A DNA stretch of 37,778 nucleotides from Sphaeroforma arctica JP610 (taxonomy: Eukaryota), in NCBI RefSeq assembly GCF_001186125.1, contig NW_014039970.1:1-37778 (forward strand), given 5' to 3'. The first letter of the stretch is position 1. Each line of letters opens with the position of its first letter. The translations under genes were made by a program, and so were the position numbers. This document shows, piece after piece, positions 477 through 37,336 of the stretch. Under the pieces are notes generated by a model. It saw only the letters and a list, made by a program, of their open reading frames with translations. It was not told the origin of the DNA and did no database searches.

Positions 477-686
477 CTGATTCGCAGCCTGGATGGTAGG
501 TCCGTCCGCAATCGGGTCTGTGAATGGTACACCCACTTCGATGATGTCCGCACCAGCTTTCTCAAGTGCTAAAAGTATAGGCACAGTCTGATCTGGGGCC
601 GGGTAGCCAGCGGGGATGTATGGGATAAATGCAGGTCTCTCCTCGCGCTTGGCCTTGGCGAATGCTGATAGTAGTGCCTCAGACAT
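477..686 (-). CDS. TRP5: Tryptophan synthase alpha domain, first coding exon (70 codons); remainder of the gene lies beyond the window start. Probably the fused alpha-beta enzyme (TRP5-like).
   Basis: Translation MSEALL...AFIPYIPAGYP...GADIIEVGVPFTDPIADGPTIQAANQ contains the TrpA signature (E-x-G-x-P-F-x-D-P-x-A-D-G-P-x-I-Q). Exon ends at CAG|GTTCGT donor (477/476). Confidence 0.93.
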
Positions 687-5130: not shown

Positions 5131-5658
5131 CTCCTCTAACATCGACTATCGGTTATATAAGTGTGTTGTCATCACCCATGCACGCAGCAAGGACGCAACC
5201 TTGGCCAGATATACCATCGACCCAGGCTGCTCTAACCTTATGCGGGCACGACGTTGGGATCGTCAAAGGCATCGGCTGTCACCCATGTAGGAGATCCTTC
5301 CAACCAGCGTACCAAATATTTCGATTGTTGAGTCGCCTCATTATGACGGTGCAAAATGATGCGCCGAAATGTCAAGCCGCTCTCTCTCCATAGAGATTCA
5401 TTGAGTGGTGGCTCGGTGGCCCAATGTACAAGCCGAATAATCCCCACATTCACGGGTCGGTCTCTGAGATCAGGTGGCTTGCTGCCATCCTTTGCTCGTA
5501 GATGGTAGCTCTGATTTTCCCGACTATGGGTCACGTACGGACCAAGCAGTGGTTTCATGGCTTTGGTCGTCGCTCCCTGAGCGAGTATCATGACGACGTC
5601 CCCCATCTTTAATTCAATCAAATCAAATTTACGCATCTGATCCGTGTAGCCTCTGCCA

Positions 5659-6568
5659 TGACATCAGTATACTTAATCGTTTTCTGATGAAGTTTTGGTA
5701 GTGTGAAATCAGCGGGTTTTTATAGTAGAATCACACGTTAGCGTATATTTAAAAACGTATTAACGTTTAAACGCTATTTCGGCTATAAAACCTGGTATAT
5801 GTTGAAACGCAATTGTAGATATTTGTATCTGTATAACAATCAAATAATCTAATTATAGATATATTGAATTTACAGAAAACAAACAAACAAATAATCTTAT
5901 TTGGATATTTGGAATTAAATACAATTGTATACGACAGAGGCCGGAGACCCTGTTAAAATTGATATGATGGTTTTTCTATCATGATATGTTTTCCATCAAA
6001 ATATTGAGATACAACACTGGGTGAGTCTCAGGTAATATTGACACTTGTTGACACATGTTGTATTACCAAATACTCTCAGCGCGAGATAGCCTACTGAGAA
6101 ATGGGGCATGAAAATGATCCCCTCGAGCCGGCCAACTAGATGTGCCCGTCTATGCCTTCAATGGGATGGAGAGCTAGGTACCGTGTGATGGGGTATAGGT
6201 ACAGACATTTAACTGTCCATCATGGTGTTATTTATTTATTTTTATTTTTTAAGTTGGACTTTATTGGTAATTGTGATTGGAAGGTAATTTCGAGGCATGA
6301 AATGGTGTAGAAGAAAATATCATGCATCCAATGAAATGGAATCTGATCTTAGTTACTGACACCGAATAAATATAGACCGAAGTATTGAGTGATTAGAGCG
6401 GAGCCATAAAGACAATAGTCTCAGTCTTACATCCCCTAATCTTTAGCTCATTACCAAGGGCTGAAGCTAAACTTAAATTACATTGTGCAAATTTACTATG
6501 AAGTCTTACTTTTCTTTTACGTTAACTTATTGAAACCGATAGTCAGCCTGGTTGGTCTGACTTTTACA
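5659..6568 (-). mobile_element. ~0.9-kb AT-rich insertion interrupting the element 1 integrase C-terminus; LTR-like (TGTAAAAG...TGTCA on the minus strand)
   Basis: The integrase ORF stops abruptly at 6564 and resumes at ~5655. Termini TG..CA and blocks shared with other LTR-like sequences; no clean TSD seen. Confidence 0.55.
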
Positions 6569-7519
6569 GCAGGATAGTCTTCTCCAAATTATCCAGCCTC
6601 TTTAACCATACATCATTCGTGGTAGGAGTAAGACCAGGTAAGTCATCAGTCATGTTTTCAAGCGGGACATGTCGTCGACCAAAATAAACGCTAAATGGTG
6701 CTGACTTGTGATGTCGTGATATCCGAAGGTTCTGGTATAACATGGTAAGCGGTAGACGTTCATCCCACAACTCCGGACAACCAACACACAATGCGCGCAC
6801 GCATTTGTGGATTTCCTTATGTCGGCGCTCCGCCGCGCCCAACGTCTGCGGGCGGTATGGTTGAGGCGTCTTGTGTAAAATGCCCAACGCTCGTGTGATG
6901 GATTTGACAATATTATTTACAAATTCGGTGCCCTCGTCACTCTGAATCTTACGAGGAAATCCATGCTCACCAAACACTGACACTATCTCTGCCGCCACTA
7001 TCTTTGCATCCTTCGCAGGTATCGCCCGTAGGATAAAGTAGCCCGACGCCACATCAAGCACATGTAAAATAAATTTGATTCCTTTAATGGATGTGACCGC
7101 CATAGAAATGAGATAGATTTGTATGTGATCCCAGGGGTACCGAGCGGTAATATTTATTAGAGGATGAAAACCCTTCTACATCGTATCGTTGCCCAAGCAT
7201 GTGCGACATAACTTGCGGACTTCTTCTGTGATTTCCATCGTCGCGCATATGTTGTACTGTAACTGCTGGGGCCGGACGTCCCTGTTCATGAAATTTCCAT
7301 GTCAACTGTACCCGACGGTTCGCTTCATCGTGCCCTGGATGATTCATCACTGTAGCACCAGCACATATTTCAGGAATTTGTGCAGCGATCTGTCGCGTTC
7401 GTTTCGCTATCACCGGTTGTGCCCAATCTTCCTGATAACGTGTACTAGCGTCTCCACATTCAGGTACCTCCAAGCCTAAGTCACACCAAAACGATGGATT
7501 GACTTTGTACCCAGATGGA

Positions 7520-7921
7520 GGGCCAATACGTACCACGATAGTATGCTCCCACGGGTATTTACCACAAGCCTGTGAGCCGTGCTTCAAGAATGTGTGAGCC
7601 GTACGTGGGATAAGTAGCGGGTCTGCTTGCATCATCGATAGAAGTAAAAGGAACCGTGGCGCACGTGTGTTCAACGGTAAACATATTGTTGCCGACGCCT
7701 TGTCCTTCAACACCTTACGCAACAAACCCTTAATGTATATGACGCCACGGTGGGTTCATCCATGCGTTGTATTTACTCCAGTCAAACTTAAACGCCCCGC
7801 CATCATTGTCGTACGACCAGTAATGGCGAAGCTGAGCGTTATGACTCGAGGCAAAGGCGTCGACGTCGTTTGGTCCAAAGTGCTTCTGTATCTGGTCAAA
7901 GAAATCTGGAAACAACTTCTA
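7520..7921 (-). pseudogene. Dam-like / DIRS-type DNA N6-adenine methyltransferase domain in element 1 Pol
   Basis: In frame after RNase H (...LPDMWSR...YMSR*KLFPDFFDQIQKHFGPNDVDAFASSHNAQL...AFKFDWSKYNAWMNPPW). After a frameshift it continues LLRKVLKDKASATICLP...PWEHTIVVRIGP. NPPW at 7745-7756. Confidence 0.85.
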
Positions 7922-9554
7922 ACGTGACATATAGAACACCGCGGGGTAGTTGATATCCGCCGTGCCCTCATGAACACGACTCCACATGTCTGGTAACTTG
8001 TTCAGTTCTCCAGGTATATGTGTAATAGTAAAATTGAACTGTGCAATAATATGATGCCATCGCTGCAACATACTATTCATTCAGCTGAGTGTTCATGTAT
8101 ATGAGGGCCTTATGGTCGGTGTGTACAGTAAACTGCTGTCCAATGAGATGATCATGGAAGTGAACCAAAGCATACACAGGTAAGTGCTAATTATTCTTTC
8201 CTCGGGGTTGCATATGTCTGTTGTGCCTTGTTGAGAGTTTTGAGAAGAACATCAGGTGACGTTTGCGTCCGTCAATCAATTGAAACATTGCGCCACCAAT
8301 CCCATAATCGCTTGCATCCGTTTCTAATTCAAGTGGTACACCATCAACAGGAAAATTCAACCTGACTGCCGACACGATAGCCTCCTTCATCTGATCCCAT
8401 GGCAATTGATGTTCTGGGTTCCAACGATCCCTAATGGGCTCCTTAGGTTTAAGTTTAGAAAAGGTTCGGAGTGGAGCTACCTTGTGTGCGAAGTTAGGTA
8501 GATGCTCATGTAGAAAGTTTGCTAATCCTAACGCCGAGGCATTATCCCTTTGACATCGTGGAACTGGCCAGTCAATTAAACGTTGCTGTTTCTCATGATC
8601 CTCGTCAATGCCTTTTACTGATATCGTCTTTCCCAGGACCATCACCTCTCCCACCGCAAAGTGACATTTCTTCTGATTAAGTTTGAAGTTATTCTCCGTC
8701 AGGCGTCGAAGGACCTCTTGAACCGTAGCAATGTGCTCCTCGTAATCGTCCGATGCAATTATTAGATCATCAATATAGCATTGTACGTCTAGTCCTACCA
8801 TCAAATTACTGATTGTGCGTTGAAATTGTGACGTGAGTGTCGTCAAGCCAAAGGGAGCTGACGTAAACGAGTACTGCTGACTGTCCCATGTAAACGAAAA
8901 CATGTGCTGCGAATCGACGTGCACCGGTAACCGATGGTACGCAGCCGATAAGTCCAACGTGGTGTAGTAACGCTTGCCCTTCAAGTTGCTGATGATTTCG
9001 TTGACCTTTGGAAGTGTAAACTGATCGCCCGGGATAAGAGCGTTGATCTGCTGCAGGTCCAAGCACACACGCACCTTAATAAGTTCACCCGACGGTGTGA
9101 ATGATGGTACTGCCAACTAAGGAAGGTTAACAATCGATCCGACGATTGGTGACCAATTCGTGTTCCCATTTGTCTACTTGCTTCAATACATGTGGTTTGT
9201 ATTTGTCAGATACAAAATATCTTGTCTGCCGATGTAGGCCCAGGAGTATATCCCGAGGAATAGGGAGTGACACCTCACTACCCGGGAGTGTGCAGCGAGC
9301 TGCATCCAGAATAGTGTCATTAGCATCCAGGTATTGGTGTAGGCGTACGCGTATATCATCTGGCTCGGACAAGTCTGGGGCCATTCGAAGATTGATCGGC
9401 TCCAGGAGTTCATCCATAACATTACGAATTATCTCTGGAAATGGAGATACTAATCCGGTTAAGCCTAATCTCAACTCACCCATAATATCTATACCCAGTT
9501 TTATATCAATGTTATCCGGTAGGTTCATAAGTTCAAATGTACATCCCTCAGTGG

Positions 9555-10137
9555 TGTAGAAATACGGCCTCCGGTCAGTCTAAAATATCAAGATCAAATG
9601 AGATAACACATTGGTTTTTATTTGTGTTTAAAATAATTTAATACATGTTCTTTTTCCAATATTTCCAAAGTGTTCTAAATTCATTTTGATGGCTCCAGTA
9701 GCCTGAGTATTTGGTATGACTCATTTACTTGGACCTATATGAGACGATTGTAGATGTAGGATACTATAAACTAAATTTTATAATCTCTGAACTACTACTT
9801 ACAGGTTTTGGTCTTCCCGCCAATCTCCAAAATCCAATATGTCTTTGTCTCTTTTTAACTTTTCTTCAGATGGAACTTTATTTATATTAGCTAATGTATT
9901 AACTTGACTTACGTTCTTATGTCCATCTACAAATTAGACATGTGGTCATGAACACTTATTACTTCTAGTAAAAACTATTTCAATAAAAAACAGCTAGAGG
10001 TACGTCCTGTGTGATCGAGGATATTAAGGTTCTTACCAAGGGGCAGTCCCGATCATTCTTACACAAGCTACCACTTAAATTGTATCTTCGTTTATATGAC
10101 ATAGTTTAGAACATAGAAATATCCATCGAAATTTACA
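9555..10137 (+). repeat. 5' LTR of element 2 (583 bp, TGTAGAAA...TTTACA)
   Basis: TG...CA termini; matches the reverse complement of 13075-13600; followed by a leader and gag. Confidence 0.9.
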
Positions 10138-10325
10138 TATTTTTCAGTTAGTTAGTAGTTACCGTAGTGTACTGCTTCTAGACTGTCTAATAATTGCTTA
10201 CTGTACAGCGACAGGACTGTAAGTATTCTATACTACCTCATAGTGGCTAATACTACCCTAAAGTTAGCTACACGCTAGTTACTATATCTAGACTTTATTA
10301 ATTTCCCTATTCTTGAGCTACTGCT

Positions 10326-12305
10326 ATGGCTAAAGAAATTCTAAAGGCAACGGAGCCGCCAGCTCTAAGCCTGCTAAGCCTGTTGAGGTTCCTGAGGTTA
10401 CTGGGGACGCTGGTCCGTCTAGTACTGAGCCTGCCGTTGAAGCTGTAGAGGAAACCGTTTCTAAGCTTGGATTTGAGGAAAACTCTGAGGATGACTCGTC
10501 GGACCCTAAAGCCTTGGAAGTAGAGGTCTCAACTGCCGCGGAAAGACTCGCCAGTGTCCGTGTGTCTCCTATTAGTGCAGCCCAGGGCATCAGCTCGCCA
10601 TTTGACCGCGAAAAGTCAGATATTGGAAAGACTATATCTCCTGAACAAGTGGAGGAATCGTCTCGAGATCGACGGTTTATTACTACTAAAAGTCAGCTCA
10701 ATCTACCTATTAACAAAGATGGCGGCGTTCCCTTTCGTGAAATTTCATTGAATGCCTCGCCACTGAATGCCTCGCCACTGAATGTTGGGGCGGAAGACAA
10801 AAATGTTGGGACGCCATAACTCGACAACGAGTGGTTGGATCTTTTCAATCTCGACGCCATTTGAACCGCAAAGATGAGCTTTTAAAGGCTAGCCGCAGCC
10901 GCAGCTTCTGACCCTTCGACAGTATCCCACGTGGCCGATATTCTTCCTAAACCGAAGAAAAAAATATCCCGAGCCGGGTTTCAAACCTGGGGGTTCAAGC
11001 AGGGTTACTACTGAGCCAGTTATCGCTGGTGGAGTGAGTAAAACTTCAAAATTTAATCTCTATAGCAAGCTACAATCGACCATCCTCACGACAAACCTAA
11101 CCCTGCCAGAGGCTATGATCGTATGGAAATCGATGAGGCTTACCACCCTCATAACATCGATCCTCATTTACCATCTAACCCAGGTAAGCACGACTTTGAT
11201 AATCGTTATACTAGTTTTTCACTAGAGAGTACCCACTCTAGCTCTGAAGACGAGGAAGTGAGAACCAGACAACAACGTCTCAGGCTATTACGTTCTGGTA
11301 TGCAAGTCCTCGAGGACCGTCTGTTGAATGACTCTGACCTTGACGATAAGAAAGAGGATAACATTCGCTATCTAATCGATAACAAGAGAAAAGAGATAGA
11401 CTCCATCTTGGCACTAGCAGCCCGTAGCACTGAGGGTGAGCCTCGTGAACGCTTCGAATCATGCTTTATAAAGCAGCCAGGTAACGCGAAGGCTGAGGTC
11501 GATTTCTCTACTAATGAGAGTACAGTGGAGACACTGGAGGCCTTTGACCAGCTTAAGGAGTCTGCCATCCTTAAGGATAAGCGGATGATGAATGCCTTTA
11601 TTCATTTCTGTGAGTCAGAGGAATGAAAAACTATCTTGAAGGCCCATGAGCCCAACTGGAAAGCTTTACCCTGGCGCCAGTTGCGCGAGAATATACTTAA
11701 CGCCTTCTTTGAAGATGCACGTGACCGTGAACTTCTAGATTCTTGCAAGTCCTTTGCGAACGATACTACTGTTCGAGGTGCTCTAGCCCATATGACACAT
11801 ATAAACACTCGGATGGGAGGTCGTACCTATACTGGCGAATATGTATTAATTTGTCAGATGATGGAGACTCTGGGAGCTAACCTTTTTAAGAAGGTCAATG
11901 ATGATATTATCGCCTATGGTGATTTGCGATCTATGCCTTGGTCTGTCTTTGAGAAGATAGTTCAAAAGCATACCAAGCCATCTACTAGAGTACTTAGTAC
12001 CTCGAGCTTTATCTAGCCCGCTAAGCGTACCGCGATAGAGAACAACATGGCGCGTAGTACTAAGAAACCTCGCACTACTGCTGGAGGTGGTAAAGGCTAT
12101 ACTTCTACTGAACCAAAGGGCGAAAGGAAGGAGAGAGCACCTTGCAAGAAGTGTGGTTACAACCTCACTAATCGTGATGGCTAGCGGAATGGTAAACACG
12201 ACTCTGTTAAGTGTGCACCAGGAAAGCCAAACTTTGGACACTATATGAAAGAGTGTACTACTTGCAAGGGTACTAACGGTTGGCACAAAGATGATTGCAA
12301 GGACA
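10326..12305 (+). pseudogene. Degenerate gag of element 2 (acidic/low-complexity N-terminus, helical core, Cys/His knuckles)
   Basis: ATG at 10326, 190 bp after the LTR. Fragmented ORFs 10514-10819, 11123-11626, 11636-12016. CKKC...H...C and CTTCKGTNGWHKDDC motifs at ~12140-12300. Confidence 0.7.
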
Positions 12306-13074
12306 TACCGGGGAACTCGCGATCGCGTCCAAACTTGCGTACGGAGGCGAATAAACGCGCCAACTCGCATGCACCGCTTACATCAAACCCACGGGCTCGT
12401 TGTCGATCATGTGTACAAAATATTCCGCCGGGACCAGGACATGCAAGTCGTTGTCCTAACTTAAACGAGCACCGATCCAGGGGTAGCCGCACACAAAATG
12501 GTGGGGCTACAGTTCAACGCACATCGGCTACAAGCACATCGACACGCGGGACTCACGGATCGGGTATTAATTTCCAACCCCGTGCTAACTTAGTGGACGG
12601 TGATGTTATACCTGTTCAACCAACCACCGAGACAGGGGAGACTGAAGTGATGCACATTCATGATTTGGTCGATGAATCGTATGTGCAGAGTGACGATGAG
12701 TTGATGGAAGAAGAGCGGACACCCGATGGTTGGGAAGTTGGAATAAATTTGGAGTGACAGACTGGGGTGCCTGATGTGAACATGTGCATGTCATTTGGTC
12801 ATATGGCAACAAGAATATTTGCAGTAAAAGATAAATTGTTTCCTACTGACAATCGCGCATATGTTACTTTACAAGTGAACGGACATGACATGCGCACTCT
12901 TATTGACACGGAGGCCAACCGTTCAGTCATCACTCAGGCATCCGCAGCTAAGGCACACATCTCTATTACACCACCGGCCAAGGATAATTACATATACTTG
13001 GCGGACAAAGCCTTCAGCACTCCACGCTTGGGCAAAACACAAGCAACAACGGTACAGTACGGGTCAGCTACCAC
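12306..13074 (+). pseudogene. gag C-terminus and aspartic protease N-half belonging to element 1 (displaced and inverted relative to its pol)
   Basis: CRSC...H...C knuckle; protease motif TLIDTEANRSVI (DTGA-like). The frame ...YGSATT joins in frame across TSD CCAC to EGCTFELMNLPDNIDIKLGID at 9554 on the minus strand. Confidence 0.75.
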
Positions 13075-13600
13075 TGTAAACTTCGATGGATATTTCTATG
13101 TTTTAAACTATGTTATATAAACTAAGATACAGTTTAAGTCAATTAGGATTTAGCAGTGGTAGCTTGTGTTAGAATGATCGGGACTGCACCTTGGTAAGAA
13201 CCTTAATATCCTCGATCACACAGGACGTACCTCTAGCTGCTCTTTAATGAAAAAATTTCACAAGTACTAAGTGTGCATGACCACACGTCTAATTTGTAGA
13301 TAGACATAAGAATGTAAGTCAAGTTAATACATTAGCTAATATAAATAAAGTTCCATCTGAAGAAAAGTTAAAAAAGGNNNNNNNNNNNNNNNNNNNNNNN
13401 NNNNNNNNNNNNNNNNNNNNNNNNNNNNNNNNNNNNNNNNNNNNNNNNNNNNNNNNNNNNNNNNNNNNNNNNNNNNNNNNNNNNNNNNNNNNNNNNNNNN
13501 NNNNNNNNNNNNNNNNNNNNNNNNNNNNNNNNNNNTACAAATAAAAACCAATGTGTTTTTAGGGTTTTATTCTAGACTGACCGGAGGCCGTATTTCTACA
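13075..13600 (-). repeat. 3' LTR of element 2 (contains N-gap 13378-13535)
   Basis: Reverse complement of 9555-10137; preceded on the minus strand by the purine-rich tract AAAAGCTACTGGGGGCAA (13618-13601). Confidence 0.9.
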
Positions 13601-13726: not shown

Positions 13727-16700
13727 TCAAGACTCATGTTGTACTCTATGTCGTTTAGTATTTGGTCCAGTAATCATTTCTGATGTAGGCGCCTTACGTT
13801 TATTACGTGGTTTAGTAATAGCCAAAGGTTGTTCTTCATTAGTAAGTAACCTCGAAGAATTTTCTGCTCTGTTGGTAAGCAGATCTGAAATTTTAGTGAC
13901 ATAGGAAGTAGGTGGCAAATAGGGAATTTCAGATCCATCCGGGTTTGTAGTCACCTGATGAAACCCTTTCCGTTTATCTCGTGTGTTCTTATGTAAACGC
14001 TTATTTCATTTCTTATTAGAAATACGAAGGAAGTCGCGAGATTCACGAAACGCATCGGAGGTTAGCCAAGCTACTGTCCCATCCATAAAACGGGTCTTGT
14101 AGTAAGTGTAACCGTCTTCGGATGTTTTGTCAAATATATCTTTGACTTGTGACTCCATAACCGGGACATCAGAATCAAATGAGCGAGCGAATGATAGTTC
14201 GGAGGTAGGGATACGGCGAGTGCCTAGATTTGTTGCGCTAGTACCATCTATGTTATTCACTTCGTAAGTATCACTCTTCTCATCATGGTAGGAAATAACA
14301 AAAGGTCCAATTGTCTTAAAAGAGAGTTCGGTAACGTTGGCATTGCGATTTATAATGTTATCATAATCGCCAACTTTGAACTGAACAATGTTCTTAGTGT
14401 TATTCCATCGGTCATGCGCTTTAAGTAGGGCACGATTTTTGTGCTCGAGTAAACAGGGATAAACAACGTTTTGCATCTGCTCGATCTTTTATAGCCACGG
14501 AGTAACATGCTTCTCGGGCTCAGTTTTGTCAAACGTTGCTTGTAATTCACTATAGTGGCCAAAGAAATAGTGAAACGGGAGTGTTCCAGTTTGAGGATTC
14601 ATGCTGTTATTCATTTGAGTCTGAACCCATTTCAAATGATAAGGCCACATCCCTCAACGTCATCCAGTGCGGTACGCAATAGCTTCTTTAGTTCTCTATG
14701 ACGTGTCTCATTTGCACCCTGCGTTTGAGATTTATAAGGAACACCACGCCTATGGGTCATGCCTGATACGAGTATAAGTGCCTCCATTACGTCGGTACAA
14801 AACTCACTACCGTTTTCAGAACATAGTACTCGTGGGAAACCGAAGTCATTAAAGACGTGATAGCATATCTCTGCCACTGTTTGCGGGCGTTTGTTCGGTA
14901 TTGCATAAAGCAAGTTATAGCCCGAAGCCACACATAAGAAATGACAGATATATACATCGCCAGTGTGCTTGGATCGTGTGAGTTTATCCAAATCGACTAT
15001 GATTCGGCGCATCGGTTGGTCTTCTGTCACACTTTTTAGGGGTGCCGAATCGTAGCGCTTGATCTGGTTCTTTTCACAATCAGTACAGCGTCGGTATACT
15101 TCACGTAGGGTTTCTTTCAGCGCCGGGTGATCAAGCCCTACACGAATAGACATCTTATAAGTATGCTCTTATGCTCGATGAGTTAAATTATGTATTATTT
15201 TAACTCTACTCTCGAGCTCTTCTAAGTCAGTCAGATTCTGTGTAACGCTGGCTGGATGAACCATAGTCCCGTTAGATAGGGCAACTTAAATATCAGGAGG
15301 AGTAGACTCCTGAGATACGTGATAAACGACATTAGAATGTTGAAGTATCTTCTTCAGTTGTTTCGCAACTCCTGGCTGTTCTTTAAGCAGCGCTTTAAGT
15401 AGTTGAGTGCGAGCTTCAGGTTCTCTTAGAGCTTTGAGTCTTTGATCCATGGCCTTAGCTAGTTCCATGTTTCTACGATCTAATGCCGTCTCAATCGGCA
15501 TTGCCTCGACTGCATTCTTGTTGGGTGCATGTGTTGTACGAGTCTTGAGCTTTTGTTCAAACTCCTTAGACTCTTCTAGTTTAGCTAAGAACTCGGTTGA
15601 GGGTTACTTAGTGGTACCTGCAGGACCGATGCGATAAACGATGGTGTGTTTCCAAGGCGTCTTCTTAATAGAATAGGATCCCCGATACAAGAACGTGTCG
15701 GTTTAACGGTCGACATAGATAGGCTCGTCTTGTATCATAATAATTAAATCATGTATCCATGGGTCGGAGCTACTTAAGGGACAACACAGCGTAATGGTAG
15801 ATTTAGTAATATTAACATAATTTAACAACTGTGCGATAAGTTGCCAAGGTGGGTTAGCCCACGCATTATGCTTTGATAAGTCAAGTTGAAAGGCATCACC
15901 TTTAGGATGAGTCAACGACCTATATTCAGAAACCTGTTTGTTATGTTCTGCGGCGAACATATCAAGAGTAAATGGACCCCATCTTGATTGAGCGAGGTTA
16001 AACCATTTATTATTAAGCATCCAATCGGTTGCTAATAAATCTTTAACTGTTTTCTGGTAGTCAGGGACAAGTCGCGAGAGCATGTCAGGAAGATGATTAT
16101 GTATTCCTGGTAACTGTGTAATGTTAAAAGAAAACTCAGCGGCTCACCAACTGTGAATCAGGGTTCATGTCCTTTAAGTATGTTAAAGACTTTTGATCAC
16201 AGGCGACAGCAAAGTAACTTCCATAAAGGTAGTCTTTAAACTGTCTTAGCGCAGGTAACAATAGCAAGGAGCTCTTGTTTAACGGTAGAGTAATTTCGTT
16301 GACTCTTATTATAACTCTTGCTAAATAATTGTATGTAGCGTGGTTTACCATTTATCGTTTAGTATAGCACTCCACCTACCGCTCGATCTGAAGCGTCGGT
16401 TGCTACTTGGAGTGGTACGTCATCCACAGGGTATTGCATGATGGGTGCGTCCATTACTTTACTTTTGACTAGCTTAAATGCATCATCACATTCTTTAGTC
16501 CAGAGCTTTCCCAAAGGTCCATTGTGCAGCCGTAGGTGACTGAAAGGCTTCAAGTAATGAGAAAGATGAGGGACCGAATCCGAGAAGAAGTTAACAAATC
16601 CACACACAGAGTTCACATCTCTTCCAGTAACCTCTGTTGATAAATCCAACAGAAATTATTTCTTGCCAGGATCAATTTCTACCCCTGCTGCAGATACCTT

Positions 16701-17650
16701 GTAACCAAGTAAGTGTATAGTATCTTTAGCAAAAGAACACTTGTTTTCATTAATCTTAAGTTTGGCATGGTTTAGTCGCTTTAAGACTTCTTTAACGAGT
16801 TTAGCATGTTCATGTGCTGTCTTTGTAAAGATAACTATATCATCTAAACATGCTGATACGTTATCCGACAGGTCCGCAAATGGTTCCATCATAACTTGTT
16901 GGAAGAAAGAAGGTAACATGTGTAGGCCTTCAGGTGCACCTTTAAACTGGTACTTCTTACCTTTCCAAGCAAAGGAGATTATTTCCTATGCGGCACATAT
17001 ATTTGTAATTGATGGAATGCAGCTTTTAAGTCTACCTTGGAAAAGATAGTCGCACCTTCCATTTTGCGTAGTATCTCGCTTATCTTTGGTAAGGGAAAAC
17101 TGTGTTGTGAAATTAGTTTGTTAATTGGCGACATGCCTAGTACTCCTCTTGTTTTACTAAATGTTCCATCAGATTTATATTGATCGACCGCTAAGAGAGC
17201 TAAGTTAACTGGGATTACCTCATAATTGATTTCAATTAGACCCTGTTTTAACCAATCTTCAATTTGGGGGTTGGCGGCGTCTTTGTGTCTCCAACTCACG
17301 TAGTTGTGTGAAGGAAACTTTAACTTAGAGAAGTCGACGTTTGTTAAGTCAAGCTTAACGTACCCGTTAGAGAACTTAAACATACACCAGTCAGTTATTG
17401 CAATCTTCCTGTTTTGTATAATTAAGTTCATAATTATATCGGTAAAGTGCGGAATCATATCCTTTGCTTCACCTTCCGGAGGTTTAGGTATCTTTAACAT
17501 GTTATCATCTGACTGATCTTTATTTGGGTCTAGCCCTTTAGGCAGACCAGTGAGAGTTATACCTAAACTGAGAAGATCAGTTATACCTATAATTAAATCG
17601 TATTTCTGAGACATGTCAGTAACGATTAGGTGAGTCTTTACGTCTAAATT
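13727..17650 (-). mobile_element. Element 2: degenerate Ty3/Gypsy-type pol (protease end, RT, RNase H, MTase-like domain, integrase, chromodomain-like), truncated at ~17650
   Basis: YDLIIGITD; FPLPKISE, KVDLKAAFHQL, CLDD; VATDASDRAVGG, ACDQKSL, LPGIHNHLPDMLSR; integrase CTDC, IIVDL, SENGSEF, GANETRH; chromodomain-like YYKTRFMDGTVAWLTSDAF. Confidence 0.92.
15622..16026 (-). pseudogene. Dam-like / DIRS-type DNA N6-adenine methyltransferase domain in element 2 Pol
   Basis: DWMLNNKWFNLAQSRWGPFTLDMFAAEHNKQ...GDAFQLDLSKHNAWANPPWQLIAQLL...TITLCCP...W...PWKHTIVYRIGP, in frame with the RNase H end. NPPW at 15844-15855; one premature stop at 15703. Confidence 0.88.
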
Positions 17651-19587: not shown

Positions 19588-20265
19588 TTAGCAGCTCAGG
19601 GATCGCTCCAAAAACTCGTCAGTGTGCAGACTAGTAACCTTCCTGAACCCAAGTGTTTGCATATCGCAAACTCTATCAACGTCACCATGCCATTCCTTAT
19701 TTGTACCTCTTACTCTGGCGTAGTAGTACCAGACCAGGTTATCGCTGTAGAGATGAAGGGGTCTAACAGACTTTCCTGGATCAGCCTCGTACCAGCACGT
19801 TGTGACCCAAGTACCGTCGTTCTTTAGGTGGAGAAAGGCGATATCGACCGACAAGTGGCAATTGTTGGTGATTTGGAACCCCTTATTATCGGGATTACAA
19901 TCCCCGCCGTCGTAACCACAGACGCGACTGTTGCATTCGGAATTGCACACCCCGTTTCCATACTTGACCTTGTAGTTACAGACGCTTTCGTCGCAGCAGT
20001 CGTTTTCGAAATACGAGCAAACGTCGACCTCGTACCAGTTAACACCAGGAATAATGGACCGTCCAAGAGGCACAGTTTCATTCACCGTAACATTTTTCGC
20101 GGTGACCATTGGACCATCATCCGTAAGATGCAGGAGTTCGACACCAGCTACATTGGCCCCATAATCGGTCGCGTCAGCCGGTGTGGGGAAAACATCGTCT
20201 TCAAGAGGAGCGGAGAGCACCAGCGCGCAGACGGCGGCAACCAAGGTAGCCTTTACAGAAATCAT
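19588..20265 (-). CDS. Intronless secreted protein: signal peptide + LNR (Lin12/Notch) repeat + DUF1036-like domain
   Basis: MISVKATLVAAVCALVLSA signal; C...GNGVCNSECNSRVCGYDGGDC LNR consensus; C-terminal FQITNNC..VDIAF..W.T..WYEADPG..WYYYAR..W.GD resembles DUF1036. Confidence 0.75.
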   Translation of the reverse strand: MISVKATLVAAVCALVLSAPLEDDVFPTPADATDYGANVAGVELLHLTDDGPMVTAKNVTVNETVPLGRSIIPGVNWYEVDVCSYFENDCCDESVCNYKVKYGNGVCNSECNSRVCGYDGGDCNPDNKGFQITNNCHLSVDIAFLHLKNDGTWVTTCWYEADPGKSVRPLHLYSDNLVWYYYARVRGTNKEWHGDVDRVCDMQTLGFRKVTSLHTDEFLERSLSC

Positions 20266-20573: not shown

Positions 20574-21060
20574 AAGTCGTTTTCACAATATATTAATTAA
20601 AGATGCGCTACGCTAGTTTGCCATCGTGCCATTTTGATATTTATTTTCTTTACTTATAAAAGTTAATAAAAAAATCTCCCAAGTGCAAAATCGAGAAATT
20701 TGTCGTTTGCTTCTTTTTATTTGTTTTCAAAAATATGTTTCTTTATACAAGCGATAAATTTTCTATAGATATAAAGCACCTATATACTCTAGAATAGGCT
20801 CTGCAACTCAGTCTGCAGTCTGCAGTAGACGACATGTCGGCGAGGTAGTTTCAGCCGACATGTAGCGAAGTCGTTTTCATATTATATTAATTAAAGATGC
20901 GCTACGCTAGTTTGCCATCGTGCCATTTTGATATTTATTTTCTTTACTCACTAAAAGTTTAAAAAATATCTCTCAAGTGCAAAATTGAGAAATTTATTGT
21001 CTGCTTCTTTTTATCTGTTTGTAAAACAAATGTTTCTATATAAAAGCTTTAAATTTTCTA
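20574..21060. repeat. Direct repeat pair of ~190 bp (20574-20765 and 20868-21060)
   Basis: aagtcgttttca..tatattaattaaagatgcgctacgctagtttgccatcgtgccattttgatatttattttctttact...aaattttcta occurs twice. Confidence 0.9.
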
Positions 21061-21061
21061 T

Positions 21062-21675
21062 TACGTACTAGAGTAGATACTCTAGACTTAGAGAGATATT
21101 CTGAGCACAGAGTAGACCGCAGAGTGATTATTAGTCACCTTACCTGACTGGGATTGGCTTATTTCAGATCTATGCATATTTGTAATACTGTCAAATTGTC
21201 AATACTTTAGAGTTTAGCGAGAAGTGCGAGGAGAAACTCAGAGAAACCTTTTGTTTAGAAAAGAAATCTCTTTTTAAAATAAATACTTATTAAAACCTTC
21301 TCTGAAATTCTGACAAAAAAAAAGTATGTGGATACTATCACACACAATCACTCGCTCACACACGCGTTCACCCAATTACACACCCGCTCCCTCATACCCG
21401 CTCACTAATATTTACACACGCCTACATACATACGTGTAGTTGTCGTGTAGTACGTGTATACACTTTTTTGTTTGAAAAATCGACATGTAAGATCTTCAAT
21501 CTTCCCCATAAAATATAAAATAGCCATAGCCCCATCTTTTACTCTAATAAATATTCTGTATATATATATACATATATATATATCTGTATATATATAGATA
21601 TAAATATATACTTATTTATATATATATATATATATATATCTGTATATATCTATATCTATATCTATATCTATATCT

Positions 21676-21816: not shown

Positions 21817-23431
21817 GACATATACATAGACATAGACATAGACATAGACATAGACATAGACATAGACATAGACATAGACATAGANNNNNNNNNNNNNNNN
21901 NNNNNNNNNNNNNNNNNNNNNNNNNNNNNNNNNNNNNNNNNNNNNNNNNNNNNNNNNNNNNNNNNNNNNNNNNNNNNNNNNNNNNNNNNNNNNNNNNNNN
22001 NNNNNNNNNNNNNNNNNNNNNNNNNNNNNNNNNNNNNNNNNNNNNNNNNNNNNNNNNNNNNNNNNNNNNNNNNNNNNNNNNNNNNNNNNNNNNNNNNNNN
22101 NNNNNNNNNNNNNNNNNNNNNNNNNNNNNNNNNNNNNNNNNNNNNNNNNNNNNNNNNNNNNNNNNNNNNNNNNNNNNNNNNNNNNNNNNNNNNNNNNNNN
22201 NNNNNNNNNNNNNNNNNNNNNNNNNNNNNNNNNNNNNNNNNNNNNNNNNNNNNNNNNNNNNNNNNNNNNNNNNNNNNNNNNNNNNNNNNNNNNNNNNNNN
22301 NNNNNNNNNNNNNNNNNNNNNNNNNNNNNNNNNNNNNNNNNNNNNNNNNNNNNNNNNNNNNNNNNNNNNNNNNNNNNNNNNNNNNNNNNNNNNNNNNNNN
22401 NNNNNNNNNNNNNNNNNNNNNNNNNNNNNNNNNNNNNNNNNNNNNNNNNNNNNNNNNNNNNNNNNNNNNNNNNNNNNNNNNNNNNNNNNNNNNNNNNNNN
22501 NNNNNNNNNNNNNNNNNNNNNNNNNNNNNNNNNNNNNNNNNNNNNNNNNNNNNNNNNNNNNNNNNNNNNNNNNNNNNNNNNNNNNNNNNNNNNNNNNNNN
22601 NNNNNNNNNNNNNNNNNNNNNNNNNNNNNNNNNNNNNNNNNNNNNNNNNNNNNNNNNNNNNNNNNNNNNNNNNNNNNNNNNNNNNNNNNNNNNNNNNNNN
22701 NNNNNNNNNNNNNNNNNNNNNNNNNNNNNNNNNNNNNNNNNNNTATATATATATATATATATATAAAAGCGTTCCTGACAAAAATTTGTTGAAAAAAAAA
22801 TTGTGTGACGAGTGGCGACAGTGACTTTTGGGATAGCATATACTAAATACACACTACAGCTATTACTCTTTCAAGGGAATAAACGACAATATAACATACA
22901 TATTTACATAAATATATTAATAAATACAGTTATGCGAAGTCAGAACAGTACAGGACTACAGACAGACTCACAGTACTGTATTTACAACACAACAAGAGAG
23001 AGTATGCATAGCTTGTTGTTATTTTAATCATAATATTTTTAAAAACGAAAACACACTTTCGTTTGTCGGTTCTCACAACATACACTATCTCTGTCGTCGA
23101 CTCGTCTGTCGTCTGTCGATTATCCCTCTGGAGCAATCTAGTGACAGAGGCCGTTCACTGTTGTAGACTCTACGTACTAGAGTAGATACTCTAGACTTAG
23201 AGAGAGATATTCTGAGCACAGAGTAGACCGCAGAGTGACTGTTAGTCATCTTACCTGACTGGGATTGGCTTATTTCAGATCTATGCATATTTGTAATACT
23301 GTATACTTTAAAATTAGCGAGAAGAGCGAGGAGAAACTCAGAGAAACCTTTTTTTTTAGAAAGGGAATCTCTTTTTATAAAAATAATTATAAAAACCTTC
23401 TCTGAAATTCTGACAAAAAAATAGTATGTGG
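21062..23431. repeat. Direct repeat pair of ~265 bp (21062-21331 and 23171-23431) flanking microsatellites and an N-gap
   Basis: tacgtactagagtagatactctagacttagagag...gggattggcttatttcagatctatgc...aaaccttctctgaaattctgacaaaaaaa occurs twice with substitutions. Confidence 0.9.
21558..21884. repeat. Compound microsatellite (TA)n/(TATATC)n/(CATATA)n/(CATAGA)n
   Basis: Directly visible. Confidence 0.95.
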
Positions 23432-24000
23432 CATTGTGCCATGTGGCATGTGCTTGTGAGTAAATAGATGTTACTGTAGATCAAATATATGTCATAACCA
23501 AATTAAGTTAAATATTTATCTATTTGTTTTAAAAAGACATGTTGGAGTCTCTGGAGAATGTGTGCGCAAAACGAGTTTTATATTGTTTCTTTTTTAAAAA
23601 TAATAACAAAACATAAGGTCAATATTATAAGTCACAGGTCCCCCCCCCCCCCCCCTGATTTTGGGCTTAAAATAAACCCTAAAACACGGAAGCACATCCG
23701 AACCGCCCTAGTTGTGAATTTCAAAGGTTTGTCTGTATTTAAAATGGACTAATTTTTATATGCGCATAGCCTTCTAAAATACAGAATATGCGGCGAGCCG
23801 GCGACCGCTATATGTGTGATTTCAAAAAAAGGCAGTTGAGGACTAGTAGAGAGGGCTGGCAAGTGGCAGAGAATCTTAGAGTTAATCGATTAGTATTCGC
23901 TATGCGCACTTGAGAAGCTCAATAGCACCTCTGTTGAGTACAACTTTGGCTAGGAAACAAACAATGGGGATTCATTGTCTATATATAACCCAGTGGGGGA

Positions 24001-26157
24001 ATGAGCGAAATATCATTCCCTCTAGCTTGTTTTAAACTGTCAAAGTCTCCAGAGAAGATGTGTATCGCACCCTCGACAACTGACGATGGCTTGACAGCAG
24101 TTCTGAGCAACGGAGTGTATGGAGAGATTCTCCGTGCCTTTGATCAGCTCAAATTGAAAGATTCCACACTACACGTACCAAAGTTTGTTGTTGTTGGAGA
24201 TGAGAATGTTGGCAAGAGTTCAACACTGGAGCGTATAGCTGAATACAAAATATTCCCGACGGGAGTGGGGTTCACCACACGGATGATCACCAAGTTGATG
24301 CTCAGGCACACAGACAAGGATGATCAGGTTACCATACGGGTTGTTAATCGGAACTCAGGAAATATTGCTCGGGATAACCTGGACAAACTATACGAATTGA
24401 ATATACCAGTTGGAAATGACTATCGCAATGGAGAGACAGACATACGAGAGCATGTGTTGGAAATAATCAACAAGTTCACAATTCAGACCGGTGATAATCT
24501 GACTAAGCAGGTATGAAGCTTAGCAGTTGTGCATGTACCCTACGCGAGGCACTTGAGTGATATTTTCATAATCAAGTTATTGCATATCAATTGACGACAT
24601 TTACCCAAATTCAAATTACAATCCATAGGATGTTGAAATGGATCACGAATTTCAAGTCGAAGTGCAATCTTCTCGTGTCACTACTTTAGATCTGTATGAT
24701 ATGCCTGGTAAGTGTGTTGCCTTATTCCTGCTTATTCTTGCTTGTGTGTTTTATGCCGTCCGCGTATATTTGCTCCGACAAAAAACCCCCCCACCTGGTA
24801 TTGAACTCAATTGTCATATTTAAATATGAAATACAACTGCAGGTATAGTATCAGACCCCCCAAATGTTGCTAAAAATACTCGACGGTTGACTATGGGACA
24901 ATTAACTGATCCGAATGTGATAGCAATATGCGTACTCTCAGCGCAAACAAACTTACGCAATTTCAATATCTTGAATCAGGTGTGTTGGTCTTGGTGCCAT
25001 TTTGATTGCTATGAGTTCGTTATAGGAGCCCCGGTGAGTTGGTCATTACTACGTGCACACAATTTTTACTTTGTGAACTACCGTTAGAATCTCCTCATGT
25101 CAAGAAAAATTTAAAAATTATCCTACAGATCCGTGAAGCTAATGAAAGACGAGCAGGGGAGACTCTGCGTGCTATTGGGGTACTAACTCATGTAGATAAG
25201 TCTACTCCAGAAAGGGTTAGAAAAATGATAGGAGATTTCTTGCCTCGTTCTCCCTTGCAATCTCTCATTCCATTGATCAATGAGGATACGAATCCTATCG
25301 ACGATAGAAGCAACGGATATACTGAAAACGATTTTCAGGACGCGGGTTCGGCGGCGTTGGTACAGCACTTGGATTCAGAATTGAGAACTTATATGCGTGA
25401 CTTTTGGTTGGGGGAGCAGAAGCAGAAGCTTCAACGCTGTAGGGAGGATGTGAACAACAAGATCTCTGCTTTGGGTGCGGTTGCAGATACAGATATGTAC
25501 AAGAATTTGATTGCGGCTACTGTGCATACTGTTATTAAGCAACACTTCCGAACTATCCTAGAGAATCTTCAAATCGATTCACAGATGTTCGCCACAGCTT
25601 TATCAGGACCAAATGCATTTGGCAGCACAGACATCACATTCTCTTGCGTGCCAACGGATCGGTTGAACAAAATCAGATTTTGCTGCTTCTGGAAGAGCAG
25701 AATTTCCGACAAGATGTCCTCATTGATAAGTTTGATGATGGACAAGGTGAAACTACGTCTATCGAGCACAAGTCTAAAAGCAGTTCTCATCTCCGGTATC
25801 AGTCAACAATATGTGGTTTCGCGATTCTCGGCGATCCCTGGTTTCGTGGAGAGCTTGTTCGAAGAACAATTGAATATGGAACGTAGTTCGATTTCAAGCA
25901 TTATGAATGATATAGCACCTATATTCAAGGCACCTAACAATATTTCTGGAATTCGCAACGAACTGACAGATGTGTTGGTAGAACACATATTCGCGCCGGT
26001 ACTTCTATGGTTTGAAAATCCAGCTTTTGTGCGCACTTTAATGGGACATTCGGATTGTTGGGCGGATGACAACGATTCCAAGCGACTTGAACTTCAGGCC
26101 AAACTGGTACACATTGAAGAGGCGGAGCAAGTAATCGAAAGTCTGAACGACTCTTGA
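24001..26157 (+). CDS. Dynamin-superfamily GTPase (Mx-like, divergent); exons 24001-24510, 24629-24707, 24843-24979, 25129-26157 (~584 aa)
   Basis: G1 PKFVVVGDENVGKSS, G2 FPTGVGFTTR, G3 LYDMPG, G4 GVLTHVD. GT-AG junctions keep frame. C-terminal GED-like helix KRLELQAKLVHIEEAEQVI. Confidence 0.88.
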
Positions 26158-26529: not shown

Positions 26530-26900
26530 ATGAGCTGTGTGTCCATTGTGATATGTGGTGCAATGAGAGTACACTGTAAATATGTGTCCATGGCGATATG
26601 GAGACAATTCGAGTACATGGTTACTTACAGTACTATGAGAGAACGCTGTAATTATGTGCCCATGGCGATATGTAGAGTACAGTTAAAGAACATGGTGATA
26701 TTTAGTAAAATTCGAGTATATGGTTATATACAGTACAATGAAAGAACGCTGTAATAATGTGTCCATAGCGATTTGTAGTACAATTCGAGTACATGCTTTA
26801 TATACAGTACAATGAGAGAAAGCTGTGATTATGTGTCCACCGCGATATGCAGTGTAAATAGAAAACATGGTGATATGTAGTACAATTAGAGAACACAGTG
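26530..26900. repeat. Degenerate minisatellite (~55-60 bp units)
   Basis: Recurrent tacaatgagagaacgctgtaattatgtgtccatggcgatatg-like units. Confidence 0.8.
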
Positions 26901-36459: not shown

Positions 36460-36685
36460 CGCAGAGTACATGTAGTGCTTGTGAATTAACTTACATATTA
36501 ATGCAGAGTATAAGTAGAAATAATGGATTAATTTACGTATTAATGCAGAGTACAAACAGAAATAATGGATTAATTTACGTATTTATGCAGAGTACAAGTG
36601 GTGCTTATGAATTCTTTTACGTATTGATGCAGAGTACATGCAGTGCTTATGAGTTAATGTACGTATTATTACAGAGTACATGTGG
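36460..36685. repeat. ~42-bp minisatellite in OTC intron 2
   Basis: Repeating taatgcagagtaca...tacgtat units. Confidence 0.85.
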
Positions 36686-36959
36686 TGAATTGTTGTGATA
36701 GTATCTATTGCGCTACAGTCCTTCTTCTGTATGCTGAATCCAGCTGACTTACACGCACATACGCACACACACATACATGTGTGTATATGTATATATGTAT
36801 ATAGGTATGTTTCTGTCAATGGTGCGGCCGAAGTGGAGTTTACCAGAAGTACATGGGAGTGTCTGTGGTACACAACATATTGCTAAGCTTGCAGTATAGA
36901 TTGCGACATGGCGTGCACGGTACCACAGATACCAATAGTCTAAACACGCAGCAACCAAA

Positions 36960-37336
36960 CAGTACTTGCGCATTACTTGTACATGACCATAGCCCATACG
37001 TCTATCTACCACTGATGATCTTTAACAGCACTTGCACATTGCTTGTACATGACCATAGCCCAAACGTCTATCTACCACTGATGATCTTTAACAGCACTTG
37101 TACATTGCTTGTACATGACCATAGCCCATACGTCTATCTACCACTGATGATCTTTAACAGCACTTGCACATTGCTTGTACATGTCCCTAGCCCATACGTC
37201 TATCTACCACTGATGATCGTTCGCAGCACTTTCACATTTCCATAGCCTATGCTTATATCTACCACTGATGATCGTTCGCAGCACTTGCACATTACTTGTA
37301 CATGTCCATTGCCCATACATCTATCTACCACTGATG
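36960..37336. repeat. 66-bp tandem repeat (~5-6 units) in an OTC intron
   Basis: cagcacttgcacattgcttgtacatgaccatagcccatacgtctatctaccactgatgatctttaa units. Confidence 0.92.

What the first reader, a model, noticed from the sequence alone, without database searches (positions are those of the whole stretch)
15622..16026. Gypsy-type LTR retrotransposon with a DNA N6-adenine methyltransferase domain inside Pol (element 2)
Seen: right after the RNase H end (LPGIHNHLPDMLSR) the same frame reads DWMLN..WF......WGPFTLDMFAAEHN...GDAF..D...NAWANPPW.LI..LL......TITL..P....PW. A DDE integrase and a chromodomain-like region follow, and the element has TG..CA LTRs. Known: DxFA (SAM-binding) plus NPPY/F/W (catalytic) define amino-methyltransferases, and this phage-Dam-like domain follows RNase H in DIRS tyrosine-recombinase retrotransposons. 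Standard Ty3/Gypsy Pol is PR-RT-RH-IN(-chromo) with no MTase. Inference: this is a Gypsy lineage carrying its own 6mA (or 4mC) writer. It could methylate its cDNA or insertion site, for example to mimic host transcription-linked 6mA or to evade host defence, alongside a chromodomain reader. I do not know of a description of this architecture, but I cannot search for one.
Basis: partly seen in the sequence, partly recalled or inferred. Interest (0 to 1): 0.93.

Follow-up and report, generated by a model that had tools for sequence, protein, structure and literature searches.

The report
Gypsy retrotransposon carrying adenine methyltransferase domain
A broken copy of a Gypsy-type jumping gene carries an adenine-methyltransferase-type domain between its RNase H and integrase, a design already described in a May 2026 preprint; in working copies the domain likely methylates the element's own nucleic acid (untested), and the element also ends in a worn-down chromodomain that the preprint reported as absent in what is probably the same lineage.

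Summary
Observation confirmed, on the minus strand. A Pfam Dam domain (PF05869, 35.1 bits, cutoff 28.1) with DxFA and NPPW sits between RNase H and a DDE integrase in a Ty3/Gypsy pol. The copy is dead (8 stops, 4 frameshifts), but unbroken relatives (82-88% and about 68% identical) keep the order, as does a second, distant element in the window. The class is not new: bioRxiv 10.64898/2026.05.21.726589 names it DAM-LTR, describes an ichthyosporean lineage and proposes the same 6mA-mimicry idea. This scan has also seen DAM-LTRs in other genomes (there with Dam before RT). Three additions. (1) The pol tail here and in Abeoforma whisleri relatives is a divergent chromodomain with an incomplete aromatic cage (HHalign 97.7%; profile hits HP1, E 9e-7), below the preprint's threshold, so its 'lacks chromodomains' is probably wrong. 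(2) The closest solved fold is the RNA cap methyltransferase PCIF1 (Z 11.0), so an RNA or hybrid substrate stays open. (3) NPPW is altered in some family members (CPPW, NPPC). The LTRs exist, with a 4-bp target duplication, but are inverted relative to each other by a rearrangement. Catalysis is untested.

The parts
15622..16035 (-). Dam-like N6-adenine methyltransferase domain of element 2: DMFA 15963-15952, NPPW 15855-15844, in-frame stop at 15703-15705
   Evidence: PF05869 35.1 bits; PHROG 111; model pLDDT 92.3; PCIF1 Z 11.0, rmsd 2.8, 133 aligned
16050..16502 (-). RNase H of element 2, with frameshifts near 16350 and 16140
   Evidence: PF17919 45.7 bits, PF17917 24.7 bits; tblastn to P0001
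16659..17145 (-). Reverse transcriptase of element 2, with a frameshift near 16980; YxDD reads CLDD in this copy
   Evidence: PF00078 66.6 bits; translation
17146..17644 (-). C-terminal part of the protease and RT N-terminal region of element 2; homology to P0001 begins at its residue 92
   Evidence: tblastn 86% identity
15289..15603 (-). Poorly conserved linker between Dam and integrase; likely holds a protease cleavage site (inferred)
   Evidence: P0001 linker 16-33% identical to seven relatives, against 30-68% for Dam
14635..15288 (-). Integrase: H2C2 zinc finger and DDE core; the second Asp reads Glu in this copy and Asp in P0001
   Evidence: PF00665 27.5 bits, under the 32.6 cutoff; P0001 36.5 bits, H2C2 E 0.16; sequences
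14153..14383 (-). GPY/F-type SH3-like integrase C-terminal domain
   Evidence: alignment A1; model residues 1-66 match MLV IN CTD 7jyz at Z 6.2; SH3_Tf2-1 weak in 2 of 12 members
14009..14152 (-). Divergent chromodomain with incomplete aromatic cage
   Evidence: HHalign 97.7%, control 0.2%; profile hits HP1 1kna at E 9.3e-7; Chp1 chromodomain Z 6.8, rmsd 2.1, 51 aligned; atlas; cage residues
13601..13610 (-). Polypurine tract directly before the 3' LTR
   Evidence: sequence; the same G-run precedes this LTR in the loose ends of other copies in runs X1 and X4
13075..13600 (-). 3' LTR of element 2, TG..CA, with a 158-base N gap inside; followed by the 4-bp target duplication GTGG (13074-13071)
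9555..10137 (+). 5' LTR of element 2 (inferred), TG..CA, 583 bp, preceded by GTGG (9551-9554); now inverted relative to pol
   Evidence: 319 of 345 ungapped aligned positions identical to the 3' LTR; 86.5% over 304 columns with gaps
10138..12311 (+). Leader and decayed gag of element 2's family (inferred)
   Evidence: contig depth stays at the LTR's level up to 12311, where other copies run on in different sequence in X1, X4 and X8
12312..13074 (+). gag end and protease N-terminal half of element 1, displaced by the inversion
   Evidence: PF13975 31.4 bits; other copies join 13072 to 9552 on opposite strands; P0012 residues 36-117 map here and 118-239 to 9540-9166
5241..9554 (-). Element 1: a second, distant DAM-LTR (PR-C, RT, RNase H, Dam 7918-7492 with DAFA and NPPW, integrase, SH3, chromodomain); decayed; element 2 inserted into its protease
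   Evidence: Dam 37.7 bits, RVT_1 82 bits, rve 38.1 bits; 39% identity to P0001 over RT-RNase H

Best explanation
This is a dead copy of a Ty3/Gypsy LTR retrotransposon whose pol reads protease, reverse transcriptase, RNase H, Dam-like methyltransferase, integrase, SH3 and divergent chromodomain, and in working copies the Dam-like domain likely methylates adenine N6 on the element's own DNA strand during reverse transcription. Steps: (1) shown: domain order, fold, motifs, conservation, LTRs, polypurine tract and target duplication. (2) Inferred from Ty3/Gypsy biology: pol is cut by the element's protease inside the virus-like particle, probably in the variable linker after Dam, which would leave Dam on RT-RNase H as in DIRS. 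(3) Inferred: the domain is a compact SAM-binding core with no evident target-recognition domain, so it would depend on being tethered to RT and act on cDNA or the RNA:DNA hybrid rather than on free double-stranded DNA. (4) Inferred, following the preprint's model: 6mA on the new copy would be maintained by host AMT1 and favour transcription. (5) Inferred: the cage-poor chromodomain would bind chromatin or nucleic acid to bias integration but would not read methyl-lysine as HP1 does. Identity as a DAM-LTR: about 0.93. Catalysis on the element's own DNA: about 0.45.
For: Dam hit above cutoff. Model pLDDT 92.3 with Asp28 in a strand and NPPW right after a later strand; the top folds are adenine-N6 methyltransferases. 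The motif-I Asp and both Pro are invariant in 15 of 15 aligned clade members and the Asn is in 14 of 15. Dam is as conserved as RT, RNase H and integrase (P0001 against P0002: 68, 61, 72, 58%) while the linker is 33%. Differences among near-identical copies lean synonymous: 8 of 20 listed rows (p 0.036), or 8 of 14 (p 0.003) after dropping six rows that reach the 8% threshold only through one contig of X17; expected share 0.20. No difference is listed at the first two bases of the Asn codon in 4 of 4 runs. The RT tree splits 17 integrase-type rows from 22 DIRS-like rows at 100/99; the best PDB match of P0001 is Ty3 Gag-Pol, E 6e-63. The preprint reports more 6mA and more transcription on DAM-LTRs in two ichthyosporeans.
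Against: No activity was measured here. The preprint's eukaryotic DAMs did not raise 6mA in dam-minus E. coli. Iyer et al. (PMC4738411, passages) judged DIRS1 MTase copies likely inactive. The closest unbroken relative P0001 has CPPW, and NPPW reads NPPC in 39 contigs of X1 and 10 of X8, where it carries most of the summed depth (depth is not copy number; 4 contigs and under 0.1% in X4). The best structural match is an RNA enzyme (PCIF1 Z 11.0); E. coli Dam is at Z 8.2 and T4 Dam at 7.9. The host and its AMT1 status were not determined. 6mA enrichment could come from host AMT1 acting on transcribed copies.
Confidence: 0.5

Rival explanations
1. Same element, but the domain is an RNA adenosine methyltransferase, like PCIF1, that marks the element's own transcript or the RNA strand of the hybrid to aid stability, translation or packaging.
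For: PCIF1/CAPAM is the top match in both fold searches (Foldseek E 9.3e-4, ranks 1-5; VIA Z 11.0, next 9.0), followed by the rRNA enzymes DIMT1, KsgA and Erm. PCIF1_WW weakly hits the Dam region of element 1 (E 0.063) and of P0024 (E 3.5e-4). Iyer et al. place the DIRS1 MTase in the PCIF1 clade. It would explain the negative E. coli DNA test.
Against: A shared fold does not fix the substrate; identity to PCIF1 is 13-14%. The sequence profiles hit are phage DNA methyltransferase families. The preprint's association with AMT1 hosts and DNA 6mA points to DNA.
Confidence: 0.2
2. The domain is a catalytically dispensable nucleic-acid- or SAM-binding module of RT-RNase H, kept for its fold; the 6mA seen on DAM-LTRs is written by the host.
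For: CPPW in the unbroken P0001; NPPC common in X1 and X8; FPP or HPP in 3 of 20 integrase-type relatives, with one more not parsed; negative E. coli assay; Iyer et al.'s reading of DIRS MTases; earlier scan notes report degenerate motifs in other lineages (not checked).
Against: The Asn is kept in 14 of 15 members of this clade at 30-68% identity; a purely structural domain would not be expected to hold both DxxA and NPP[WF] so tightly.
Confidence: 0.25
3. The arrangement is an accident of this locus: a DIRS fragment nested in a Gypsy element, or an assembly chimera.
For: The locus is nested, rearranged and gapped.
Against: Single unbroken ORFs P0001 (1400 aa) and P0002 (1376 aa) hold RT, RNase H, Dam and integrase in this order; 17 of 151 proteins examined carry Dam and an integrase in one chain; the RT and RNase H before Dam are Gypsy-type.
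Confidence: 0.02

Closest known systems
Ichthyosporean DAM-LTR lineage (Fernandez-Moreno et al., bioRxiv 10.64898/2026.05.21.726589; whole main text read; figures and supplements not visible)
   Same: Ty3/Gypsy LTR element with a PF05869 Dam domain in pol. The nearest named relatives found are Abeoforma whisleri EukProt proteins P0003, P0004 and P0006, which group with this element in the Dam tree (15 rows, 85/99) and, for P0003 and P0004, in the RT tree (13 rows, 92/93).
   Different: The preprint says this lineage lacks chromodomains; here the element and all ten relatives aligned, P0004 and P0006 among them, end in a divergent chromodomain. The host of this window was not determined.
Chlorophyta DAM-chromovirus-like clade and EpiLTRs (same preprint)
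   Same: Dam plus chromodomain in a Gypsy pol.
   Different: No cytosine methyltransferase hit in any ORF scanned here; the chromodomain here is below the Pfam cutoff and lacks the third cage aromatic. No sequence of that clade was in hand by name.
DIRS1-type tyrosine-recombinase retrotransposons with a Dam/MT domain (PMC4738411, PMC5890265, PMC6338049: passages; PMC3783388: search listing only)
   Same: Same domain family in the same place, straight after RNase H; most of the best 150 homologues are RT-RNase H-Dam proteins that end soon after Dam.
   Different: This element has an aspartic protease, a DDE integrase, direct-type TG..CA LTRs, a polypurine tract and a target duplication, and its RT groups apart from the DIRS-like rows.
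Group II chromodomains of plant chromoviruses (PMC3350952, passages)
   Same: They lack the first and usually the third cage aromatic; here the third is missing in 12 of 12 and the first in 7 of 12.
   Different: That paper reports group II only from plant Gypsy elements; relationship not tested here, so probably a parallel loss (inference).
PCIF1/CAPAM cap-specific adenosine N6-methyltransferase
   Same: Closest solved fold (Z 11.0, rmsd 2.8, 133 of 147 residues).
   Different: PCIF1 is a much larger cellular enzyme (about 480 residues in the solved chain); 14% identity; no sequence-level PDB hit.

Membership tests
Ty3/Gypsy LTR retrotransposon | pol order protease-RT-RNase H-integrase | tested here: met
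Ty3/Gypsy LTR retrotransposon | Gypsy-type RT/RNase H | tested here: met
   PF17917/PF17919; best PDB hits Ty3 7q5b E 6e-63 and 4ol8 E 6e-57. The RT tree had no named Gypsy, Bel-Pao or DIRS references.
Ty3/Gypsy LTR retrotransposon | TG..CA LTR pair, polypurine tract, target-site duplication | tested here: met
   LTRs 9555-10137 and 13600-13075, PPT, 4-bp GTGG; inverted relative to each other by an inferred rearrangement
Ty3/Gypsy LTR retrotransposon | primer-binding site after the 5' LTR | tested here: inconclusive
   No TGG start after the LTR and no self-priming match beyond 7 bases
DAM-LTR (2026 preprint) | PF05869 Dam domain in the pol of an integrase-encoding LTR element | tested here: met
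   35.1 bits, E 1.4e-8; unbroken ORFs
DAM-LTR (2026 preprint) | NPP catalytic triplet | tested here: met
   NPPW in both window elements; variants CPPW (P0001) and NPPC exist
Ichthyosporean DAM-LTR lineage | Dam groups with Abeoforma/Pirum/Sphaeroforma elements | tested here: inconclusive
Ichthyosporean DAM-LTR lineage | host is an ichthyosporean encoding AMT1, with 6mA on the copies | not testable with these tools
   No genome held; the host-gene search returned only the window's own protein
Ichthyosporean DAM-LTR lineage | no chromodomain (as stated in the preprint) | tested here: not met
   Divergent chromodomain here and in A. whisleri P0004 and P0006. None of 12 reaches E 1e-5 singly, best 1.5e-4, so the stated feature is probably a threshold effect
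Canonical (group I) chromodomain | three-residue aromatic cage (HP1 Y24, W45, Y48) | tested here: not met
   Element 2 has Ser, Phe and a gap at the three positions; the third is a gap in 12 of 12
DIRS retrotransposon | tyrosine recombinase instead of DDE integrase; no protease | tested here: not met
   rve integrase and aspartic protease present; no recombinase family hit in the ORFs scanned
EpiLTR | Dam plus C5 cytosine methyltransferase plus chromodomain | tested here: not met
   No DNA_methylase hit in P0001, P0002 or the window ORFs scanned
Active DNA N6-adenine methyltransferase | methyl transfer to adenine in DNA | not testable with these tools
   Motifs and fold only

The most novel reading that the evidence does not exclude
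The Dam domain of these Gypsy elements is a PCIF1-like writer that works inside the virus-like particle on the element's own RNA or RNA:DNA hybrid, and the lineage described as chromodomain-less is in fact a cryptic chromovirus lineage with a cage-less chromodomain that steers integration to active, 6mA-marked chromatin. Natural subfamilies with NPPW, CPPW and NPPC would then give a built-in test of whether catalysis matters.
Probability: 0.2. Interest if true: 0.65.

Novelty: new member of a known kind. Interest (0 to 1): 0.3.

Why it matters
The class is already in a preprint, so the architecture itself is not news. The locus matters modestly. It suggests a correction: the ichthyosporean-type DAM-LTRs probably do pair the methyltransferase with a chromodomain, which changes the count of writer-plus-reader elements and the preprint's split into chromodomain and non-chromodomain DAM-LTRs. 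It also offers handles on an open question, what DIRS/LTR Dam domains actually methylate: unbroken ORFs, natural catalytic-motif variants within one abundant family, and a structural lead towards RNA or hybrid substrates.

Tried and rejected
No whole genome is held, so copy number, dN/dS on intact DNA copies and AMT1 presence could not be computed. A word-index search with the P0001 Dam region found only P0001 and P0002; the exhaustive search was needed. A homologue search with the neighbouring LNR-domain gene, meant to place the host lineage, returned only itself. Pfam and PHROGs on the single chromodomain-like tails of the window: no Chromo hit. Foldseek on the tail model: no match at E 0.001; tandem Tudor domains ranked first and chromodomains matched only the last 50 residues at E about 0.1-0.3; VIA Z values stayed under 8, so the fold search alone is weak and the case rests on the profile comparisons. 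phmmer of the Dam domain against PDB sequences: nothing. No RNA holder was listed by the run search, and X17 is RNA only by guess: no inference on expression. CpG, ApT and GATC counts showed no clear signature. I first took 13110-13374 and 9852-10100 for terminal inverted repeats or an unrelated insertion; rejected once the TG..CA ends, polypurine tract and target duplication were found. I then considered the plus-strand LTR a solo LTR with all of gag belonging to element 1; disfavoured by the depth step and loose ends at 12311. Element 1's Dam falls among DIRS-like rows in the Dam tree, but it fills 43% of columns on a long branch, so I gave it no weight. The direction DIRS to Gypsy was not tested: the trees are unrooted and have no prokaryotic outgroup. 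No complex prediction was run.
Full report
1. The observation. The motifs are on the minus strand. One stop-free frame (16143->15706) runs from the end of RNase H through DWML, DMFA, GDAF and NPPW. It scores 35.1 bits against Pfam Dam PF05869 (cutoff 28.1, E 1.4e-8) and hits PHROG 111. An AlphaFold2 model on a 15-sequence alignment is confident (pLDDT 92.3, pTM 0.87). Its best structural matches are adenine-N6 methyltransferases: PCIF1/CAPAM first (Foldseek E 9.3e-4; VIA Z 11.0, rmsd 2.8, 133 aligned), then DIMT1, Erm and KsgA (Z 8-9), E. coli Dam (Z 8.2) and T4 Dam (Z 7.9). The domain is real and far above chance.

2. The element. Pfam finds RT, Gypsy-type RNase H and an rve integrase core around the domain, in the order PR-RT-RH-Dam-IN. 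This copy is dead: 8 in-frame stops and 4 frameshifts against its closest unbroken relative, one stop inside Dam. Two unbroken ORFs were found: P0001 (1400 aa, 82-88% identical) and P0002 (1376 aa, 68% over the query). P0001's best PDB match is Ty3 Gag-Pol (E 6e-63). The exhaustive search gave 1036 hits at E 0.001; I examined the best 150 plus P0001. Of these 151, 17 carry an integrase in the same chain, 20 were classed as LTR-type by integrase or Gypsy-type RNase H, and 38 are RT-containing proteins without those features, which I call DIRS-like (recombinase not tested). An RT tree of 15 LTR-type proteins, 22 of the 38 DIRS-like proteins and the two window pieces separates the two groups at 100/99. 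The accident explanation (nested DIRS fragment, chimera) is therefore rejected.

3. LTRs and layout. No direct repeat flanks the pol. A TG..CA LTR follows a polypurine tract at 13600->13075, and a second copy lies on the plus strand at 9555-10137; 319 of 345 ungapped aligned positions are identical, and GTGG stands outside both. Contigs of other copies join 13072 to 9552 on opposite strands in X4, X7 and X8, and P0012's protease maps half to 12836-13081 and half to 9540-9166. So element 2 inserted into the protease of a second element (element 1), making a 4-bp duplication. Contig depth stays high from the plus-strand LTR to 12311, where other copies run on in different sequence. I infer that 10138-12311 is element 2's leader and gag and that 12312 to about 17650 was later inverted, in the genome or in the assembly; this was not resolved. 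Element 1 is a distant family (39% over RT-RNase H) with its own Dam (37.7 bits, DAFA and NPPW). No primer-binding site was recognised.

4. Is the domain under selection and catalytic? Between P0001 and P0002, Dam is 68% identical, RT 61, RNase H 72, integrase 58, the linker 33; across six more distant relatives Dam is 30-47% and the linker 16-30%. In 15 clade members the motif-I Asp and both Pro are invariant and the Asn is in 14. Contigs laid on 281 bases of the domain number 1141, 2939, 293 and 15 in four runs, so the family has many variants. Of 20 listed differences 8 are synonymous against 0.20 expected (p 0.036); dropping six non-synonymous rows that reach threshold only through one X17 contig gives 8 of 14 (p 0.003). 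This is a rough test: two rows share a codon, two share a site, and transition bias is ignored. Against catalysis: P0001 has CPPW; the Trp of NPPW reads Cys in 39 contigs of X1 and 10 of X8, with most of the summed depth there, but under 0.1% in X4; 3 of 20 LTR-type proteins have FPP or HPP.

5. The chromodomain. Singly, the window's tails have no Pfam Chromo hit. Aligned with ten relatives that also had none at E 0.01, they form a GPY/F-SH3 region followed by a chromodomain-like block. That block against six canonical chromodomains from other DAM-LTR proteins gives HHalign probability 97.7%, E 1.9e-12; the SH3 part as control gives 0.2%. The profile's best PDB hits are HP1, CBX5 and CDY chromodomains (E 9.3e-7 to 3e-6; 63 sequences at E 1). 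The model's last 55 residues align with Chp2 chromoshadow (Z 6.9) and the Chp1 chromodomain (Z 6.8, rmsd 2.1), middling scores; Foldseek gave nothing at E 0.001. The atlas's two best clusters for the P0001 tail are Chromo at score 0.90. Eight of 12 members hit PF00385 at E up to 5, best 1.5e-4. The third cage aromatic falls in a gap in 12 of 12, the first is non-aromatic in 7 of 12, and the second is Phe rather than Trp in element 2's own subclade. This resembles plant group II chromodomains (PMC3350952, passages), so HP1-like methyl-lysine reading is unlikely.

6. [quoted passage not shown] It reports more 6mA and expression on DAM-LTRs in two ichthyosporeans, an association with AMT1, no activity in dam-minus E. 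coli, and the model that Dam marks reverse-transcription intermediates for maintenance by AMT1. Its domain calls used E 1e-5. The nearest named relatives of this element are A. whisleri EukProt proteins P0003, P0004 and P0006, which group with it; P0004 and P0006 have the divergent chromodomain, and P0003 ends before the integrase. That they belong to the preprint's set is my inference. Iyer et al. (PMC4738411, passages) place DIRS1 MTases in the PCIF1 clade and think them inactive. PMC5890265 and PMC6338049 (passages) know Dam only from DIRS. Six searches found no other paper describing DAM-LTRs and none reporting a chromodomain in the ichthyosporean lineage; the library lacks most subscription journals. 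The scan's own notes list 60 findings with these words; the 8 shown are in other genomes, with Dam before RT or before the protease. None is similar by sequence or in this genome.

7. Mechanism. Shown: architecture, fold, motifs, conservation. From established Ty3/Gypsy biology (own knowledge): pol is processed and reverse transcription occurs in a particle. Inferred: cleavage in the variable linker leaves Dam on RT-RNase H; the compact domain acts on the nucleic acid RT holds; 6mA on the new copy is kept by the host and favours transcription; the SH3-chromodomain biases integration without a methyl-lysine cage. I put about 0.45-0.5 on self-DNA methylation, 0.2 on an RNA substrate, 0.25 on a non-catalytic role.

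8. Verdict. Real feature, correctly read, already described as a class. New member of a known kind, with one probable correction (the cryptic chromodomain) and leads on substrate. Interest 0.3.

Noticed in passing
window 5241-9554 (-) and 12312-13074 (+): A second, distant DAM-LTR (element 1) with Dam, integrase, SH3 and chromodomain; element 2 inserted into its protease, so one DAM-LTR family is nested in another. It groups with P0012 in the RT tree (98/93).
   Followed up: yes
window 12312 to about 17650: Segment inverted relative to the inferred original layout; the first 91 residues of the P0001-type protease are absent at the right breakpoint. Real inversion or assembly error not resolved.
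   Followed up: partly
window 5665-6560: About 0.9 kb of A+T-rich sequence interrupts element 1 between the integrase core and its C-terminal domains; no second copy in the window.
   Followed up: partly
window 15844; P0001 residues 698-701: Natural variants of the catalytic motif within one family: NPPC common in runs X1 and X8, rare in X4; CPPW in the unbroken ORF P0001.
   Followed up: partly
P0010, P0021, P0025, P0069, P0096, P0099 (unnamed records): Other RT-RNase H-Dam-integrase proteins with canonical chromodomains, outside this element's clade; P0025 is a Gag-Pol fusion with HPPW, P0096 and P0099 have FPP. Hosts unknown; they may be further DAM-LTR lineages.
   Followed up: partly
window 477-686 (-): First exon of a tryptophan synthase alpha-chain gene (PF00290 86.7 bits).
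   Followed up: partly
window 19591-20265 (-): 225-aa ORF with a hydrophobic N-terminus, an LNR/Notch repeat (28.6 bits) and a weak DUF1036 match; no homologue besides itself among proteins of similar length.
   Followed up: partly
window 23989-26157 (+): Dynamin-like GTPase pieces (Dynamin_N 39.9 bits) in two long frames.
   Followed up: no
window 20574-21331 and 23171-23431: Short direct repeats (about 195 bp at 89%; about 270 bp at 90%, on both sides of a microsatellite and gap).
   Followed up: no
window 26534-26891, 36461-36712, 36892-37342, 37451-37778: Tandem arrays with units of about 72-100, 42, 66 and 56 bases.
   Followed up: no
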